The position numbers were made by a program, and so were the translations under genes. A stretch of DNA of 64,000 nucleotides, from contig NW_024704743.1 of NCBI RefSeq assembly GCF_018977255.1, forward strand, positions 7,442,001-7,506,000, written 5' to 3'. Positions within the stretch are counted from its first letter, which is position 1; the number at the start of each line of letters is the position of its first letter. Below are positions 7,778 through 62,818 of the stretch, in pieces. This stretch comes from Callorhinchus milii (taxonomy: Eukaryota). Below the pieces are notes generated by a model. That model ran no database searches. It worked only from the letters and a program-made list of their open reading frames with translations, and was not told where the DNA came from.

Positions 7778-7837
7778 GGGACAAATGTCCTGACTATGCG
7801 AATAAATAGGGAGGTAGAAAGGGCTTTAAACTACTAA
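7778..7837 (+). pseudogene. C-terminal remnant of CR1 ORF1 (SGNH-esterase-type ORF1 tail)
   Basis: Translates GTNVLTMRINREVERALNY*; an ...RALN* end is the ORF1 terminus I recall for vertebrate CR1 elements; lies directly upstream of ORF2. Confidence 0.75.
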
Positions 7838-7887
7838 GGGGGGGGGGAGGTAAAAACATAGTAAAGTATAGTCCACCACAGTTCAAT

Positions 7888-10817
7888 TTGAGATCAACAA
7901 AAGCAAGAGAGCAGATTAACAAGGGAGAAGAGCAAAGTGTGTCAAGCAGGGAAAGGAAGTACAGTGATAGAGTGCTGGTGAATAGGGTTAATAGCCGGAT
8001 GTCAGAATTAAGGGCACTATATCTGAATGCACGAAGCATTCGTAACAAGATAGATGAATTAGTTGCACAAATAGAGACAAACCGGTATGATCTAGTAGCC
8101 ATCACCGAGACATGGTTACAGGGTGATCAGGGATGGGAACTGAATATTCCCGGCTACGTGGTATATAGGAAAGATAGGCGATGTGGTAAACGAAGAGGGG
8201 GAGTGGCCCTGCTAATAAAGGATGGGATAAAAACAGTAGAGAGGAAAGATTTTAAATCTGAAAAGCAAGATGTAGAGTCAGTATGGGTAGAGATACGTAA
8301 CTTCAAGGGGCAGAAAACTATAGTGGGAGTAGTTTATAGACCCCCAAACAGTGGTCAAAGTATCGCTCAAGGTATAAATCAAGAGATTAGTGGAGCATGT
8401 AGCAAAGGAAAGACACTAATTGTGGGTGATTTTAACCTGCACATAGACTGGGACAACCAAATTGGGAAAGGTAACATAGAAGAGGAGTTTATAGAATGTA
8501 TTAGAGATAATTTTCTAGATCAATATGCTGAGGAGCCGACCAGGGAACAAGCCATATTAGACCTTGTTTTGTGTAATGAAACAGGGCTGATCAGCAAACT
8601 GGAACTTAAGGCTCCTCTAGGGCAAAGCGATCATAATATGATGGAATTTAGCGTTAAGTTAGAGAGGGAAGTAGTTAAGTCTGAAGCAAAAGTCTTCAAT
8701 TTAAATCGAGCCAACTTTGCTGGTATGAGAGAGGATTTAGCCAGAATAAACTGGGAGACTAAACTTAAAGATTTGACGGTAGACCAGCAATGGCAGACAT
8801 TCAAGGAGATAGTGCAAAATTCCCAACGAGCACATATTCCTTTGAGGAATAAGAATGCCATGGGAAAGGTGGTGCAGCCATGGCTAACTAGAGCAGTTAG
8901 GGAAAGTATCAAATCAAAAGAAAAAGCCTATAAAACAGCGAAGATGAGTAGTAAACCCGAGGATTGGGAGAACTTTAGGGAACAACAGAGGAGGACCAAA
9001 AAATTGATCAAGAGGGAGAAAATAGATTACGAGGGCAAACTAGCAAAGAACATAAAAACAGACTCCAAGAGTTTTTACAAATATATAAAGAGGAAAAGGC
9101 TAGCGAGGGTGAATGTGGGTCCATTACAGGCAGAGACCGGAGGAATTATAATAGGGGACAAAGACATGGCAGAGTCATTAAACAAGTATTTTTCTACAGT
9201 CTTCACCGTAGAAGACACTGGAAACATACCAAAAATAGAGGACCAAGAAGACAATGTTAGCGAGCAACTTAGGGAGATTAACATTAGTAAAGAGATGGTT
9301 CTAGGTAAATTGTCGGGTCTTAAAACCGATAAATCCCCTGGACCGGATGGCCTGCATCCGAGAGTTTTAAAGGAGGTGGCTACTGAGATAGTGGATGGCA
9401 TGTCTATAATCTTCCAAAAGTCTGTGGATACTGGAAAAGTTCCCATTGATTGGAAGATTGCAAACGTAACTCCACTATTTAAGAAGGGTGGGAGAGAAAA
9501 TAGGGAAAACTATAGACCAGTTAGTTTGACGTCAGTTGTAGGGAAAATTCTTGAGTCCTTAATAAAAGACGTAGTTATGGGATACCTGGAAGACCATAAA
9601 AAGATTAGGCAGAGTCAACATGGCTTTACAAAAGGGAAGTCATGCTTGACTAACCTTTTAGAATTTTTTGAGGATGTATCCAGCAGGTTGGATAAGGGGG
9701 AACCAGTAGATGTGGTATATTTGGATTTTAGGAAGGCATTTGACAAGGTGCCACACAAAAGGCTGTTACTCAAGATCAAGGCCCACGGGATTAATGGGAA
9801 AATATTAACATGGATAGAAGAGTGGCTATCGGGTAGAAAGCAGAGAGTAGTGATAAACGGATCATTCTCGAATTGGCAGGATGTAACTAGTGGAGTGCCA
9901 CAAGGATCAGTGCTTGGGCCTCAGCTATTTACCATTTACATCAATGATCTGGACGAGGACATTGAATGTAATGTGTCTAAATTCGCGGATGATACTAAAC
10001 TAGGTAGCAGAGTGAGCTCTCAGGATGATGCAAAAAGATTGCAACAAGATATAGATAGGCGGGGAGTGGGCAAGTAGGTGGCAGATGGAATTCAATGTTA
10101 GCAAGTGTGAAATTATTCACCTAGGTAGCAAGAATAAAAGAACAGATTATTTTCTGGAAGGGGAGAAGTTAGATAGTGTTAGTATTCAAAGGGATTTGGG
10201 TGTCCTTGTACACCAGTCCCAAAAAGTTAGTTTGCAGGTGCAGCAAGCAACTAAGAAGGCGAACGGCATGTTAGCGTTCATTTCGAAAGGTTTAGAATAT
10301 AAGAGTAGGGAAGTCTTGCTGCAACTGTATAGGGCTTTGGTGAGACCGCACCGAGAGTATTGTGTGCAGTTTTGGTCTCCTTATTTAAAAAAGGACATAC
10401 TTGCCCTAGAGGGGGTGCAGCGTAGATTCACTCGGTTAGTTCCTGGGATGAGGGGACTGACCTATGAGGATAGGCTGAATAAACTAGGGCTATATTCTCT
10501 AGAGTACAGAAGAATTAGGGGGATCTTATTGAAACATAAGATTCTTAAAGGGCTGGATAAAGTAGACACTGAGGGTCTGTTTCCCCTGGTAGGAGAATCT
10601 ATAACCAGGGGTCACAGTCTTAAAATTAAGGGTCAGCCTTTTAGAACAGAGTTGAGGAAACATTTCTTACACTCAGAGGGTAGTGAATTTATGGAATTCA
10701 CTACCCTAGAAGGCTGTAGATGCTCAGTCCTTGAACATTTTCAACGCTGAGACTGATAGATTCTTGAAAAATAGAGGGATTAGGGGATATGGGGATAGGG
10801 CAGGTAATCAGAGTTAG
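7888..10817 (+). pseudogene. CR1 ORF2 (AP endonuclease + reverse transcriptase), disrupted near the C-terminus
   Basis: EN motifs YLNARS, AITETWL, YRPP, GDFN, SDH; RT motifs [38 protein letters not shown]. Frameshift at ~10060 (DIDRLGEW broken), compensated indels at ~10520-10540, +1 insertion at ~10669 and in-frame TAG at ~10707. Confidence 0.93.
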
Positions 10818-11848
10818 GTGAAAAGATCAGCCATGATCTTATTGAATGGCGGGGCAGGCACGAAGGGCCGAATGGCCTACTCCTGCTCCTAATTCTTATG
10901 TTCTTATGACAGACAGTACAGTTCTGCTTTATAAAATCATTCGAGGGTGAGAGTGAAACTAAAGAAACAGAAATATTTTGTCAAAACACTGGAGGGAGGG
11001 GAAAAGTCTGATTTTCTACATTACACTCTTTTTTATTAAATCTAAAGTGTAATATAAAGAACACAGCAGCTGGTGGGAGGGGAAAACCTCCATGGTGCTG
11101 TTTTTAACAAGCGTGAAGCTGTACGCATTCCAGGAGATTATCATACACAATGAAAATACTAAATGCATAAAGTGGAGGACATTGGAGGCCTTTGCTGAGG
11201 GTAGTTGACGTTATTAAATACTTTGACAAGTGCAGATGCAATTCTTCTCCTTCCTACTTTTCTTCCCTCCTCGTCTTTCCTCAGCCAAAGCAGTAAAGTT
11301 TGCTGCACAAAATACAGTCATTATACTTTACGGTACATATCACACAAAGCGCTTTGAGACATCCCAACGTGAAAGATACTGTACCAAAGTTTACAGTCAG
11401 GTGGGGCAATGGTGCCTTGCCCATTTGCCATTCTTCGTGTGACAGATTGGGACAGTGGGTGCGAGTAAGCTGTTTGACTGTGGGGTGGGGGTTGGGAGGG
11501 GGGCATTGCGGTCAAGCCCACCTCAACCCCAGGGAAACTGAGGCCAATTGAAAGAGCCCCAGACCACCCAGCACGTCAGCTGGGATCAACTAAAACATCA
11601 CAGAGCAGGGCTCGAACGTGCACCCTTTCAACTGTGGCAAAGCAATATACAATTACAGATGTAATTTTAGCAAATAGCTGTTCAATGAGCTGCATTGATT
11701 TCTGCACCATGGATTATAAACACATAATACCTATAGTGGCAACTTGAGCTCAGTTCATTCCAAAATCCACTGAAATTCAATTTCCACATAATATCCTTGA
11801 ATTTGATATTGTGGATTTCAAGCGCTCTGACACACTAACCTGCATGGG

Positions 11849-22929: not shown

Positions 22930-24398
22930 AAGTCTCACTCCAGGGCTTTGAACACATGGACTAGGCTGACATTCCAATTGTCAGAGGAACCATCCTTCGG
23001 ATGCGATGGTAAATTGAGTTCCTGTCTGTCATTAATGTTCAGGTGGATATAAAATCTCCTTTAGCACAACTCAGAAAGAGAAAGTTTCTCTTGTAGTCCT
23101 GGCCGACAATCCCCCAGATAAAATTGTTTGTTCACTTCATGGCTGTTTTTCCTCCGGCCCCCGCATTGTCTCGTGCGGTGTCCCTCAAGGCTCTGTCCTC
23201 GGTCCCCTCCTCTTCACCCTCTATATGCTCCCCCTCGGTGACATCATCCGCAGACATGGGGTTAACTTCCACATGTATGCGGATGACACCCAACTCTACC
23301 TTTCCTCCTCTACCCTCAACTCCACGACCACCGATGTCCTGACAGCTGTCTGTCCGACATCGAGTCCTCGACGAGAGATAACTTTCTCCAGCTCAACGTG
23401 CGCAAAACTGAGGCCCTCCTGATTGGTTCGCGTCAGCGCCTCCGCACCTCAGGCGCTGACACCATCAGCATCCAAGGCTGCACTCTCCACCTCTCAAAGT
23501 CAGTCAGGAACCTCGGGGTTCTGTTCAACCCTGAGCTGTCCTTTCTCCCTCATATCCGCGCCACAACTGGCACCGCCTTCCATCACCTCTGGAATGTCGC
23601 CAGACTACGGCACTACCTCACCCCTCACGCTGCTGAAACCCTGGTCCACGCCTTTGTCACCTCAAGGCTGGACTATGGGAACTCTCTCCTCGCCGGCCTT
23701 CCCGGCACCTCCCTCCACAAACTGCAGGTCATTCAGAACTCTGCAGCTCGTGTACTGTCCTGCACCAGGCTTCGCGATCACATCACTCCCACCCTCGCTC
23801 GCCTCCACTGGCTCCCCATCCCCCAGAGGATCGAATTCAAGATCCTCACCTACAAGGCCATTCACGGCCTCGCTCCCTCCTACCTCTCCGACCTACTATC
23901 CCCCTACCTACCCGCCCGTACCCTCCGTTCCTCTGGCTCTGGTCTGCTCCACACCCCCCGCCCTAACCGCCCTACCATCGGTGGCCGGGCCTTCAGCCCC
24001 GAGGCTCTGGAACTCTATCCCCCAGTGCCTTCGCCGCCTCCTCCCTTTCCTCCTTCAAGGCCGGTCTCAAGACCTTTCTCTTTGACCGTGCCTTCAGCTC
24101 CCCTCTCGACTCTCTGCCCCCTCCTCGCTCCCTCCCTTCCCTCCCCTCACCCTGACCATTTCCCCCTTGCTCGGGTCCTGACCCAACTGTACAACGCTTT
24201 GGGACGTCCTCCCGACGTGAAAGGCGCTAATAAATGGAATCTTGTTGTTGTTGTTGTTTGTGGGACATTGCTGTGCGGCAATTGGCTGCTGCATTCACCG
24301 ACAAAACACCACTTTACAGTAAATCCTGTGAAGCGCTTTAAGATGTCCTTCTGATGTGAAAGGCGCTTTATCAAATGCAAGGATTACTATTATTATTA
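22930..24398 (+). mobile_element. Deu-domain SINE split by an L2 insertion (halves 22930-23148 and 24260-24398)
   Basis: SINE consensus ...ttcatggctgttt|gtgggacattgctgtg... is interrupted and resumes exactly after the L2 tail. Confidence 0.8.
23149..24259 (+). mobile_element. Young 5'-truncated L2 LINE (RT C-half, ORF2 C-terminus, 3' UTR)
   Basis: ggtgtccctcaaggctctgtcctcggtccc ([10 protein letters not shown]), [31 protein letters not shown]; (TTG)n tail; frameshifts present. Confidence 0.92.
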
Positions 24399-25991: not shown

Positions 25992-26231
25992 GTCAGCCTG
26001 GCTCAGCTGGCAGCGCTCTCGCCTCTGAGTCAGAAGGTTATGGGTTTCAGCCTCCACATCAGGACTTTTGAGCTCATAGTCTAGGCTGACACTCCAGTAC
26101 AGTGCTGGGGGAGTGTTGCATTGTCAGAGGTGTCATCTTTCAAATGGGACGTTAAGCCTGTTTCCCTGTTGTATATTAAAAATCCCATGGCACTATTCGA
26201 AAGAAGAAGTGAGTTTCTCCCAGTGTCCTGG
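25992..26231 (+). mobile_element. Deu-domain SINE 5' half (tRNA head + Deu region)
   Basis: gtcagcctggctcagctggcagcgctctcgcctctgagtcagaagg head; ends at gtgtcctgg where the L2 begins. Confidence 0.8.
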
Positions 26232-27125
26232 TTGAGGGGACGAGGCGGAGGGACTGCGGGATGGAGATCCAGAGAGTGGGGGCAGTGTGGCAAAAGGCCC
26301 GCCCGCCAATGGTGGTGCAGGCGAGGTGGGGGACGTGAAGCAGGCTGGAGTCCGCTGAGTGGAGGGAGCGAGCAGGATGGTAGGGGAATAGGAGGGAATA
26401 GGAGGTCGCAGAAGTAGTAGGGAGCAAGACCATGATGGGCCTTAAAGATGAGGACCAGGTTCTTGAACTGTATCCTCTGTGTGATGGGAAGCAAGTAGAG
26501 TTGGGAAAGGATGGGGGCGATAGGGTCATGGAGCCTGGTACGGGAGAGAACACGGGCTGCAGAGTTCTGGATGATCTGCAGCATGTGGAGGGAGGAGTTG
26601 GGGAGGCCGACAAGCAATAAGTTTGCATCGTCGAGCCTCGATGTAATGAAAGCGTGTATGAGGGTTTCGGCTGCGGAGTGAAACAGTGGCGGAGCCGGGC
26701 GATGTTGTGGAGGTGGGGGAAGGCAGAGCGGGTCATGGTGCAGATGTGGGGTAGAAAGGATAGTTGAGGGTCAAACAAGACTCCAAGGTTCCAGACTGGC
26801 TTAGCAAGGTGGAGTGTGCAACCATGGATGGTGATGCTGTCAGCTCCTGAGGTGCGGAGGCGCTGACGGGAGCCAATCAGGAGAGACTCGGTCTTTTTGA
26901 CATTCAACTGAAGAAAGTTAGCTCTCATCCAGGACTTGATGTACGATAGACATTCTGTCAGGACAGCAGTGGTCCTGGAGTCAAGAGTGGAGGCAGAGAG
27001 GTACAGTTGAGTGTCATCCGCATATATGTGGAAGTTGACCCCATGTTGCGGATGATGTCACCAAGAGGGAGCATATAGATATTGAAGAGGAGGGGATCAA
27101 GGACAGAGCCCTGCGGAACGCCGCA
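26232..27125 (-). mobile_element. L2 LINE internal fragment (RT to ORF2 C-terminus), no tail
   Basis: Minus-strand ORFs [21 protein letters not shown] and LQIIQNSAARVLSRTR; YADDTQL motif at ~27010. Confidence 0.9.
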
Positions 27126-60510: not shown

Positions 60511-61637
60511 TGTTATAAATATCTGATAATATAGAACAATGAGTTCTTGTGTGGATAGCATTCCAGAGCAAGAACCATGTGTTCATCTTCAAATATTAAT
60601 TTATTCTATTCTTTAATTGGATTCCTTAACACAGAATCCAAGCAAAAAATAAAATCGATATTCCTTTAAGTCACTGGAAGTTTGTCATGCTATCCCATGG
60701 GAATTCCATTCCGACATATTTCTGGACTTGAGTTCTTGTGGATGGGTGAGAATTATGACAGAATTCCATATTAAGGAATCACGTTTCGAAATCCCGCATG
60801 TTAGACTTTACACACATCTGCTAAGTAGGTTCTACAATAGGACGTTTCAATGGGTGACCCAGTGGTGATCTGCAGTGCTCTGAGGATGCCCTCCAGCACT
60901 GAGATGAGTTGCAGCTGTTGTATATGAATGCGTTGCAAAAACTACTACTTATTAATAGTTTTTCTGAACAAAATGTTCCTTAAAACCTTATGACTGGCTA
61001 TTTTCCTTTCTTCTTACTGCTTGTCAGCTTCCAGCTTTGCCCCTTTTTTGTATTTGCATTGATCATCAGCGCAAGACCAGCAAGACCCAATGTCCATGAC
61101 CAGGAAATTGTGTTACAAACTTAGTGACCACAATCAGAAATGACAGTGATATTAAAGGCAAGCTACGGCGGTTGTAGCTGGTTAGACTCCAGCAGTACCC
61201 CAATGCACACTCTGGGGTCTCCAAGCCTTGGCTCTTGCCAACCTGCGCCTAATACTTTCCGGAATTAGGTAAGCAGGATGTGTCACACCAGGGGAGAGAG
61301 TGCGCATTCCATTTCAACAATCTATCTCTGGGATTTCCATGAGTAGGTGGGATACATGAAATTCTCAGTTTGGGTTGGAAACTCTGAAGCACGGTGATGG
61401 GTTTCTGCATGTATCAGACATGCCCCCCCAGCACCCATCAGAGTCAAAAGCTCACATGTGAATTATAGTCACTTGGACAAGGTAATAGTCCATGAATCCA
61501 TATCCCATTGAGGAGTTATTTCTATGCTTTGTCACAAAGTTAAACTCTGACATTGTTAAAACACTGCAGTGATATTTTTGTATTTCCCTGTTGCCTTGTA
61601 CTGACATATCTGCTGTCTTGTACTTATATACCTGCTG

Positions 61638-62818
61638 CCCATTTCAAACCTGCCCTTCCTGGATGAAGCCCTGGAACACGTTGCTGCAAACCAACTTAGC
61701 TCACACCTCGTCCTCCAGTCCGATTTCCCCCCAGCCTACAGCACAGCGACCGCGCTAATCAGAGTAACAAATGACATCCTTTCTCTGTGTGATCAGGGTT
61801 TCCTCTGCCCCCTCGTCCTCCTGGACCTCTCTGCTGCGTTCGACACAGTCGATCACGCCATCCTTCACCACCTCCTCTCCTCCCTCAACCACCTTAGTTG
61901 GACCACACTCGCATGGTTTGAGTCCTACTTAATCAACCGCCAGCACTTCATCTCGGCCAATGGTTTCTCCTCCGCCTGGTCACCTGTGGGGTATCCCAAG
62001 GCTCAATGCTTGGCCCCCTTCTTTTCCTCATCTATATGCTTCCTCTCGGCGATGGCATTCGCAAACATATGTTTGCGGATGGCACCCAAAACTGCTTCTC
62101 CTCCTGCTATGACTCCCAGTCTGCTGATATTCTGTCAGCCTTGTTTGACAGACATCAAAGCCTGGATAAGCATAAATTTCCTGCAGCTGAATGTCAGCAA
62201 GACAGAAGCCATGCTCTTTGGCTCCCATCAACGTCTTCTTTCCTGCAGGGCTAAAATCCTCAACCTCCCCGAGGCTCTCCCTCAAACTCTCCAAACTCGT
62301 GACAACTCAGGTGTCAGGTTCGATCCCCAGCTTTCCTTTCTACCCCACATCCGTTCCCTGACCAGGACTGCTTTTTTCACTTCCGTCGCATTGACCGCCT
62401 CCATCCATACCACACAACTGATGCAGCTGAAACCCTCGTCCAAGCCTTCGTCACTTCCTGACTGGACTATTCCAGTGCCCTCCTCACTGGTCTTTCCAGC
62501 TCCACCATACACAAAATCCAATGAATTAAAAACTCCGCCACTCGGATAGTCTCCTGCACGAAACTCCGTACCTCCGTCACACCAATTGTTGTCAGGCTCC
62601 ACTGGCTCCCGATCTCCGAACGGATCGATTTCAAGAGTCTCTCGTTTTCAAATCACTTAATTCCCTCGCACCTCCCTACCTCTCCAACCTGCTTACCCTC
62701 CACTCCACCCCCCACTGCCTTCACTTGGTTGGTTCTGGGCTCCTATTTGTCCCTCGTCCCCTCCGTTCCACCATCGGTGGCCATGCCTTCAGCCACTACA
62801 CCCCGAAACTCTGGAACC
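61638..62818 (+). mobile_element. Degraded L2 LINE ORF2 (RT) fragment lacking its 3' tail
   Basis: [64 protein letters not shown] in mixed frames. Confidence 0.9.

What the first reader, a model, noticed from the sequence alone, without database searches (positions are those of the whole stretch)
7810..8001. CR1 ORF1/ORF2 junction looks like a programmed -1 ribosomal frameshift site (U_UUA_AAC + 6-nt spacer + G-tract)
Seen: ORF1 ends ...AGG GCT TTA AAC TAC TAA (stop 7835-7837), placing the heptamer T_TTA_AAC (7825-7831) exactly in X_XXY_YYZ phase. The ORF2 frame is the -1 frame (TTT AAA CTA CTA AGG GGG...) and is stop-free from 7810 through the whole EN-RT region. After a 6-nt spacer (TACTAA) comes G10-A-GG (7838-7850). 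The first in-frame ATG is only at 7999, in weak context (cggATGt), leaving about 55 open ATG-less codons (roughly 7% chance at uniform base composition). Established: UUUAAAC is the coronavirus -1 slippery site, stimulators sit about 5-9 nt downstream, and G-quadruplexes can stimulate -1 frameshifting; LINE ORF2 is usually explained by termination-reinitiation. Inference: this CR1 family may make an ORF1-ORF2 fusion like retroviral gag-pol, with the ...RALN* end conserved partly at nucleotide level. I cannot confirm whether this has been published.
Basis: partly seen in the sequence, partly recalled or inferred. Interest (0 to 1): 0.85.

Follow-up and report, generated by a model that had tools for sequence, protein, structure and literature searches.

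The report
Conserved -1 frameshift site in CR1
A seven-letter "slippery" signal, of the kind viruses use to shift the ribosome back one base, is kept at the end of the first gene of CR1 jumping genes from sharks to birds, so these elements probably make their reverse transcriptase as a fusion protein and not from its own start codon, though this has not been tested at the bench.

Summary
Its ATG at 7999 is private: 29 of 30 family copies have no in-frame Met before codon 229. In 14 of 14 CR1 lineages (12 in this genome, one fish-like, one bird-like) the majority junction is NNT TTA AAC, although the preceding codon encodes seven different residues and invariant residues upstream use several codons. 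ORF2's modal frame is -1 in six of eight families counted, the -1 frame closes 0-5 codons upstream in 12 of 14 lineages, and G is conserved at +11 to +15. Against: in this family the G-run is hypervariable and frames split 18/19/13; four lineages have a linker AUG; no conserved hairpin, pseudoknot or G-quadruplex was found. Verdict: programmed -1 frameshift making an ORF1-EN-RT fusion, about 0.8, inferred, untested; G-quadruplex stimulator unlikely. No report for CR1 in ten literature searches, but the founding CR1 papers were not readable; -1 frameshifting is already stated for Dictyostelium TRE5-A/TRE3-A. The scan had not noted this before.

The parts
7778..10907 (+). 5'-truncated, inactive copy of a young CR1 (esterase-ORF1) LINE family; ends in a short 8-mer repeat; no target-site duplication seen by eye
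   Evidence: blastn to two longer family copies, 98-99% identical over 7778-10907; 40 best matches 96-98% identical
7778..7837 (+). last 20 codons of ORF1 (C-terminal helix of the SGNH/GDSL esterase), ending ...R-A-L-N-Y-stop
   Evidence: full ORF1 from L027 hits PF13472
7807..7809 (+). stop codon that closes the ORF2 (-1) frame 5 codons before the heptamer; no ATG between
7825..7831 (+). slippery heptamer U_UUA_AAC (Ala third base, Leu, Asn of ORF1)
   Evidence: 30 of 30 family copies; 14 of 14 lineages
7835..7837 (+). ORF1 stop codon, one codon after the heptamer (directly after it in most other lineages)
7838..7850 (+). G-tract; G conserved at +11 to +15 after the heptamer across lineages; run length hypervariable in this family; candidate stimulator
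7832..8010 (+). open, poorly conserved, basic linker in the -1 frame between heptamer and endonuclease (about 55 codons here, roughly 25-55 in other lineages)
7999..8001 (+). ATG private to this copy (family reads AAG); not the ORF2 start
8011..10077 (+). ORF2 endonuclease and reverse transcriptase; frame broken near 10,060 and again further 3' in this copy
   Evidence: PF03372, PF14529, PF00078

Best explanation
Vertebrate CR1 elements with an esterase ORF1 express ORF2 by programmed -1 ribosomal frameshifting. Most ribosomes end ORF1 at the stop that follows U_UUA_AAC by zero or one codon. A minority, with tRNA-Leu and tRNA-Asn on UUA and AAC, slip to UUU AAA and read on through a flexible linker into endonuclease and RT, making an ORF1-EN-RT fusion at a fixed low ratio, like gag-pol. 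SHOWN (sequence): heptamer, its phase, nucleotide-level conservation, -1 modal register, open linker, missing AUG, conserved G-tract. INFERRED: that ribosomes shift and a fusion is made. Stimulator, inferred and weak: the G-tract acting unfolded or through a bound protein (my odds 0.45), G-quadruplex (0.2), the adjacent stop codon alone (0.2), long-range pairing (0.15). The copy in the window cannot do this itself: it lacks ORF1's start and its ORF2 is broken.
For: Codon table over 14 lineages: third base T 14/14 under 7 different residues, TTA 14/14, AAC 14/14, while the invariant Leu of GLHL uses 4 codons; background TTA 41/240 Leu, AAC 45/144 Asn, NNT 527/2407. Modal heptamer-to-EN distance is the -1 frame in F3 (14/53 at the mode), F6 (18/30), F7 (5/6), F8 (21/59), F9 (12/18), F10 (12/40). 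L031 and L032 are open in -1 from the heptamer into EN; an annotated stingray protein reads on through F-K-L into the EN motif (P0015). The -1 frame is closed 0-5 codons upstream in 12 of 14 lineages, with no Met between. No linker Met as the rule in F1, F4, F6-F10 and L031. Of 46 distant ORF1 representatives ending in LN, 1 has a preceding residue that cannot be coded NNT (background 17.7%, p=0.0014); 11 end in GN, 9 of them QGN, which fits G_GGA_AAC; S/T/A/Q/R-K-N fits A_AAA_AAC. These three heptamers are among the four named as most shifty for mammalian ribosomes (PMC5009743, passages). Published consensuses of crocodilians, lizard, frog, coelacanth, bowfin, sharks and rays show the same junction (PMC13343379 supplement).
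Against: In this family and F4 no frame mode exists: F1 18/19/13 (-1/0/+1 of 50), F4 6/10/8 of 24; by total copies -1 is not significant in F3 (20/53, p=0.29) or F10 (18/40, p=0.08). The run varies even among copies identical over 900 bases, which is costly if frame matters. F2, F3, F5 and the bird-like L032 have in-frame linker AUGs; F9 has the -1 frame open 54 or more codons upstream with a Met in 3 of 5 copies. No conserved downstream structure: z below -2 in 1 of 15, G4 in 2 of 15; no Rfam match. One representative ends E-L-N, which cannot be NNT TTA AAC (P0027). The GN and KN groups were seen only as protein. Lineages F1-F5 and F6-F10 are kin, so independent cases number about six, not 14. 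No translation data.
Confidence: 0.8

Rival explanations
1. Termination-reinitiation, as in L1 and SART1: ribosomes stop at the ORF1 stop and restart downstream at a linker AUG or a near-cognate codon; ORF2p is a free protein, and heptamer and G-tract help retain or position the post-termination ribosome.
For: The accepted model for LINE ORF2 (PMC2881922, PMC5972666, PMC5009743, passages). It would tolerate G-run length changes. Linker AUGs in F2, F3, F5, L032.
Against: No AUG before codon 229 in 29 of 30 F1 copies; none as the rule in F4, F6-F10, L031. It does not predict a canonical slippery heptamer fixed at synonymous sites, nor a -1 mode in six families. TURBS motif 1 lies upstream of the stop, the G-tract lies downstream.
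Confidence: 0.11
2. The conserved element is a processing or transcription signal (UUUAAA as a weak poly(A) hexamer with a downstream G-rich element, or a TATA-like box), making an ORF1-only or ORF2-only RNA.
For: Nucleotide-level conservation of TTTAAA and a G-tract fits in principle; such signals are recalled from own knowledge, not from a call.
Against: Does not explain the invariant C, the -1 register, the missing AUG or the protein-level switch to GN/KN ends.
Confidence: 0.04
3. Stop-codon readthrough or another recoding in frame 0.
For: 19 of 50 F1 copies are in frame 0; G4 can also stimulate readthrough (PMC3919603, passages).
Against: Modal frame is -1 wherever a mode exists; the stop is TAG, TAA or TGA in different lineages; the best-supported indel in short-read contigs is the 3-base-shorter run, which keeps -1.
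Confidence: 0.03
4. Only the protein ending Leu-Asn is conserved and the rest is codon bias or common descent.
For: Lineages share ancestry; 46 of 108 representatives end in LN.
Against: Background per lineage is about 0.22 x 0.17 x 0.31 = 0.012; the third base stays T under seven different residues while upstream invariant residues change codon.
Confidence: 0.02

Closest known systems
Retroviral gag-pol and coronavirus 1a/1b programmed -1 frameshift (U_UUA_AAC; PMC5009743 passages)
   Same: Same heptamer and phase, -1 downstream polymerase ORF without its own start, conserved element a few bases downstream.
   Different: Non-LTR retrotransposon; no hairpin or pseudoknot found; stop codon 0-1 codons after the heptamer; the downstream element is a G-tract.
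Dictyostelium TRE5-A and TRE3-A non-LTR retrotransposons (stated to require a -1 frameshift for ORF2; PMC5911963 figure legend)
   Same: Non-LTR element with APE-RT ORF2 reached in the -1 frame.
   Different: Amoebal tRNA-targeting elements with another ORF1; I saw only the review's statement, no slippery site or experiment; not CR1, not vertebrate.
L1 and SART1 ORF2 translation by termination-reinitiation (PMC5972666, PMC2881922, PMC3894237 passages)
   Same: Bicistronic LINE RNA, ORF2 made at low level and dependent on ORF1 translation.
   Different: Those have an AUG (UAAUG overlap, or 63-nt spacer); here ORF2 overlaps ORF1's end in -1 and usually lacks a usable AUG.
Arterivirus (PRRSV) nsp1beta/PCBP protein-stimulated frameshift (PMC5009743 legend)
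   Same: Frameshift without a folded stimulator; that its motif sits about 10 nt downstream is recalled, not from a call, and matches the +11 G core here.
   Different: C-rich motif and known proteins there; G-rich motif and no identified protein here.
Canonical vertebrate CR1 with esterase ORF1 (PMC13343379 passages and supplement; PMC3905857 passages)
   Same: Element type, domains and junction sequence.
   Different: These papers' main texts contain no occurrence of 'frameshift'.

Membership tests
Programmed -1 ribosomal frameshift signal | X_XXY_YYZ heptamer in phase with the upstream ORF | tested here: met
Programmed -1 ribosomal frameshift signal | heptamer conserved at nucleotide level beyond protein constraint | tested here: met
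   14 of 14 lineages, 79 of 92 copies exact; 1 of 46 incompatible residues
Programmed -1 ribosomal frameshift signal | downstream ORF in -1 frame, open from the heptamer | tested here: met
   mode -1 in 6 of 8 families counted, none in F1 and F4; L031, L032; inconclusive for this family alone
Programmed -1 ribosomal frameshift signal | no conserved independent start codon for the downstream ORF | tested here: met
   exceptions F2, F3, F5, L032 (linker AUG) and F9 (upstream Met)
Programmed -1 ribosomal frameshift signal | folded stimulator (hairpin, pseudoknot, G4) 5-9 nt downstream | tested here: not met
   pseudoknots were not modelled, but no conserved first stem appeared; long-range scan incomplete
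Programmed -1 ribosomal frameshift signal | conserved sequence element at stimulator distance | tested here: met
   G at +11, +12, +14 in 14/14 and +13, +15, +18 in 13/14 lineages; G fraction 0.71 vs 0.24 further on
Programmed -1 ribosomal frameshift signal | measured frameshifting or fusion protein | not testable with these tools
   no Ribo-seq, proteomics or reporter
G-quadruplex-stimulated frameshift | stable G4 at 6-8 nt in all family forms | tested here: not met
   predicted in 2 of 15 (F1 G10, F5), not in F1 G7; fewer quartets shift less (PMC3919603)
Canonical CR1 LINE (esterase ORF1) | SGNH/GDSL esterase ORF1, APE-RT ORF2 | tested here: met
   PF13472; PF03372/PF14529, PF00078; junction matches published CR1 consensuses
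Canonical CR1 LINE (esterase ORF1) | placement in the CR1 clade by RT phylogeny | not tested
   no tree built
SART1/L1-type termination-reinitiation | AUG overlapping or shortly after the ORF1 stop | tested here: not met

The most novel reading that the evidence does not exclude
Since the common ancestor of jawed vertebrates, CR1 has made its reverse transcriptase only as an ORF1-esterase-EN-RT fusion by a structure-free -1 frameshift that is stimulated by a G-tract held 10 nt behind U_UUA_AAC (bound by a host G-tract protein or by ORF1p itself), and distant CR1-group elements have swapped among the shiftiest heptamers (U_UUA_AAC, G_GGA_AAC, A_AAA_AAC); this has not been described.
Probability: 0.3. 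Interest if true: 0.88.

Novelty: new variant of a known kind. Interest (0 to 1): 0.72.

Why it matters
How LINE ORF2 is translated is called an open question in the reviews read (PMC3894237), and CR1 is described as the dominant retrotransposon of most vertebrate species (PMC13343379, abstract start). A gag-pol-like fusion would redefine the CR1 enzyme's N-terminus (first-ATG annotation in this family would start after the endonuclease domain), tie the esterase physically to the RT, give a set ORF1:ORF2 ratio, and add a possibly new, G-tract class of frameshift stimulator. It reduces to a 40-nt cassette that a standard reporter can test in days.

Tried and rejected
G4 as the family's stimulator: rejected as general. 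Local hairpin: none conserved; Rfam none. Long-range partner: script stopped after 14 of 21 elements, several interrupted by other insertions; no common partner; the 3' UTR pyrimidine tract ranked in the top four in 5 of 14 but by eye is the 3' arm of the local 3' hairpin. G-run length versus divergence or sub-lineage in 26 F1 copies: no pattern. My note that ORF1s ending in F-F mark U_UUU_UUY was dropped: the preceding Q or E cannot end in U. Splicing (AG at the stop): rejected because the stop is TAG, TAA, TGA or TAY-TAA. Polymerase slippage on the G-run: cannot fuse, the ORF1 stop lies before it. DNA for the GN/KN groups: three viral scans empty, one genome scan gave one unrelated bacterial hit. 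Metagenome scan: 2 of 12 loci were vertebrate-type junctions; the other 10 were distant or lacked the junction, and L034 shows ORF2 in frame 0 after the stop with no heptamer. Longer homologues (natural fusions): 2 hits, named as host genes, not inspected further; weak search. Degenerate pattern was mis-spaced and gave 1 match. No RNA holder listed on record; contigs did not bridge this copy's own G-run. L008 was aligned on the wrong strand and is ignored there. Papers not held: PubMed 9402732, PMC1190309, PMC7528939, PMC1356112.

Full report
Observation. The sequence is as described: heptamer at 7825-7831, ORF1 stop 7835-7837, G10-A-GG at 7838-7850, a 755-codon open -1 frame from 7810, first ATG at 7999. 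The element is a 5'-truncated CR1 spanning 7778-10907, 98-99% identical to longer copies, with frame breaks near 10,060 and beyond. ORF1 from a longer copy is a zinc-finger-like (by eye) plus GDSL/SGNH esterase protein and ORF2 is endonuclease-RT. The nearest named protein (93%) is from Callorhinchus milii.

The family itself. A DNA search of G000 scored 40 of 712 candidates; I took the best 30. All 30 carry the heptamer. Only the window's copy has the ATG at 7999; the other 29 have no in-frame Met before codon 229, near or past the end of the endonuclease (24 of 26 read AAG; 4 of 4 public runs read A at 8000). The G-run weakens it: 50 exact-flank matches give -1/0/+1 = 18/19/13, and length varies among copies identical over 900 bases. 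In short-read contigs the best-supported indel is three G fewer, which keeps -1, with a two-fewer form also present. This family alone cannot fix the register.

Other lineages. A tblastn-type search with a distant ORF1 (P0019) gave 121 places; I fetched 90 of them and sorted them by eye into 12 families (F1-F12; ORF1 C-terminal identity 36-100%). A metagenome scan added a fish-like and a bird-like junction, 2 of 12 loci (L031, L032; L031's ORF1 end resembles a sturgeon protein). The heptamer is exact in 79 of 92 copies and is the majority in 14 of 14 lineages; the codon before it encodes A, N, D, G, R, C or H but always ends in T, while the invariant Leu of GLHL uses four codons. Background is TTA 41/240, AAC 45/144, NNT 527/2407, about 0.012 per lineage. 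F1-F5 and F6-F10 are kin, so about six cases are independent. A stop follows directly in 10 lineages; F1, F2 and F5 have Tyr then stop; in F6 the copies split between a stop and a sense codon.

Frame. Pattern searches from heptamer to endonuclease start listed 100 of 178, 67 of 67 and 79 of 79 matches. I labelled families by eye and set aside 8 non-CR1 chance matches, 6 near-duplicate rows and 2 single rows of other families. The modal length is the -1 frame in F3, F6, F7, F8, F9, F10; F4 and F1, with long G-runs, have no mode. Counting all copies, -1 exceeds one third in F6 (18/30), F7 (5/6), F8 (29/59), F9 (14/18) but not significantly in F10 (18/40) or F3 (20/53), and not in F4 (6/24). The -1 frame is closed 0-5 codons before the heptamer in 12 of 14 lineages, 24 codons before in F6, and open 54 or more codons with a Met in 3 of 5 F9 copies. 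Linker Met is absent as the rule in F1, F4, F6-F10 and L031, present in F2, F3, F5 and L032; F11 and F12 could not be read. A Met inside the first endonuclease strand in F3 and F6-F9 aligns with L or I in other lineages.

Wider spread. ORF1 homologues from sharks, rays and turtles at 30-50% identity end in x-L-N. Of 150 representatives, 108 had the last esterase motif near the C-terminus; 46 end in LN and only 1 has a preceding residue not codable as NNT (p=0.0014); 11 end in GN, 9 as QGN (Fisher p=6e-8 against the LN group); 2 end in SKN and about nine more have S/T/A/Q/R-K-N at the same place. GN and KN fit G_GGA_AAC and A_AAA_AAC; I could not obtain their DNA, and their taxa are uncertain (Atlas look-alikes mostly Chordata). 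In the supplement of PMC13343379 (cells cut at 400 bases; species read from abbreviations), 18 of 22 rows shown were ORF1 ends with heptamer plus stop, in crocodilians, lizard, frog, coelacanth, bowfin, another bony fish, chimaera, sharks and rays, about 14 with a G-run by eye (conditioned on the motif, so spread, not frequency). With other search terms, 9 of 9 consensuses whose ORF1 end was in view had NNT TTA AAC. Frames in those consensuses are not reliable.

Stimulator. G is the majority at +11, +12, +14 in 14/14 and +13, +15, +18 in 13/14 lineages; +11 and +14 are third positions in the -1 frame, so this is nucleotide-level. Folding 90 nt downstream in 15 representatives gave one z below -2 and G4 in two; Rfam gave nothing; a partial long-range scan found no common partner. 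G4 can stimulate -1 shifts, best at 6-8 nt and less with fewer quartets (PMC3919603 passages), but the conserved core has too few G-runs. I favour an unfolded or protein-bound G-tract, by analogy with PCBP/nsp1beta stimulation; this is inference.

Mechanism and rivals. Programmed -1 frameshift giving an ORF1-linker-EN-RT fusion, 0.8; reinitiation 0.11; RNA processing or promoter signal 0.04; readthrough 0.03; protein constraint only 0.02. Lineages with a linker AUG may use both routes.

What is known. Ten searches listed no paper on frameshifting in CR1; 'chicken repeat 1' with 'ribosomal frameshift' gave 0. I saw passages only of PMC5009743 (first 300,000 characters held; 0 occurrences of CR1), PMC3708506, PMC13343379 (plus supplement rows), PMC3894237, PMC2734521, PMC4120745, PMC3919603, PMC2881922, PMC3905857, PMC5972666, PMC5911963 and PMC5006619. 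The 2005 SART1, 2006 L1 and 2003 esterase papers, and a PubMed id I recalled for the 1997 turtle CR1 paper, were not held; the 1997 turtle and chicken CR1 papers (recalled, not seen) or Repbase notes may already mention the overlap or a frameshift, and unread supplements may bear on this. A -1 frameshift is stated for TRE5-A/TRE3-A. The scan's earlier notes held nothing on this junction.

Verdict. Real, conserved and probably a programmed -1 frameshift: a new variant of a known kind, untested, with an unresolved stimulator. Interest 0.72.

Noticed in passing
window 7838-7847 and family copies L001-L030: The G-run is hypervariable (mostly G7-G12) even among copies with no substitution over 900 bases; about two thirds of copies are out of register. 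Could be RT slippage, later mutation or assembly error.
   Followed up: partly
G000: At least 12 distinguishable esterase-ORF1 CR1 families coexist in this genome, plus one further junction type at G000:C3:85753430-85753601.
   Followed up: partly
L079, L088, L090, L092, L101, L107, L128 (family F6): Many F6 copies have a sense codon (CAG, CGG, TGG, AAG) in place of the stop after the heptamer, so ORF1 would run further in part of the family.
   Followed up: no
L002, L016, L027 upstream of ORF1: A 5' segment translating as ...ATSGVRRGQSV... appears twice or rearranged in several copies, suggesting 5' UTR repeats or internally deleted forms.
   Followed up: no
G000:C3:37059226-37087996: Five near-identical F8 junctions within 29 kb: a tandem duplication carrying a CR1.
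   Followed up: no
window 23287-24354, 26081-27057, 61605-62549: Further broken RT fragments of another LINE type (L2-like by eye).
   Followed up: no
L034:1150-1744: A distant SGNH ORF followed after one stop codon by an in-frame endonuclease-like ORF: a different junction (frame 0), possibly readthrough or reinitiation.
   Followed up: no
proteins P0022, P0064, P0077, P0201: Host gene models in public sets contain CR1 ORF1 pieces, probably annotation artefacts.
   Followed up: no
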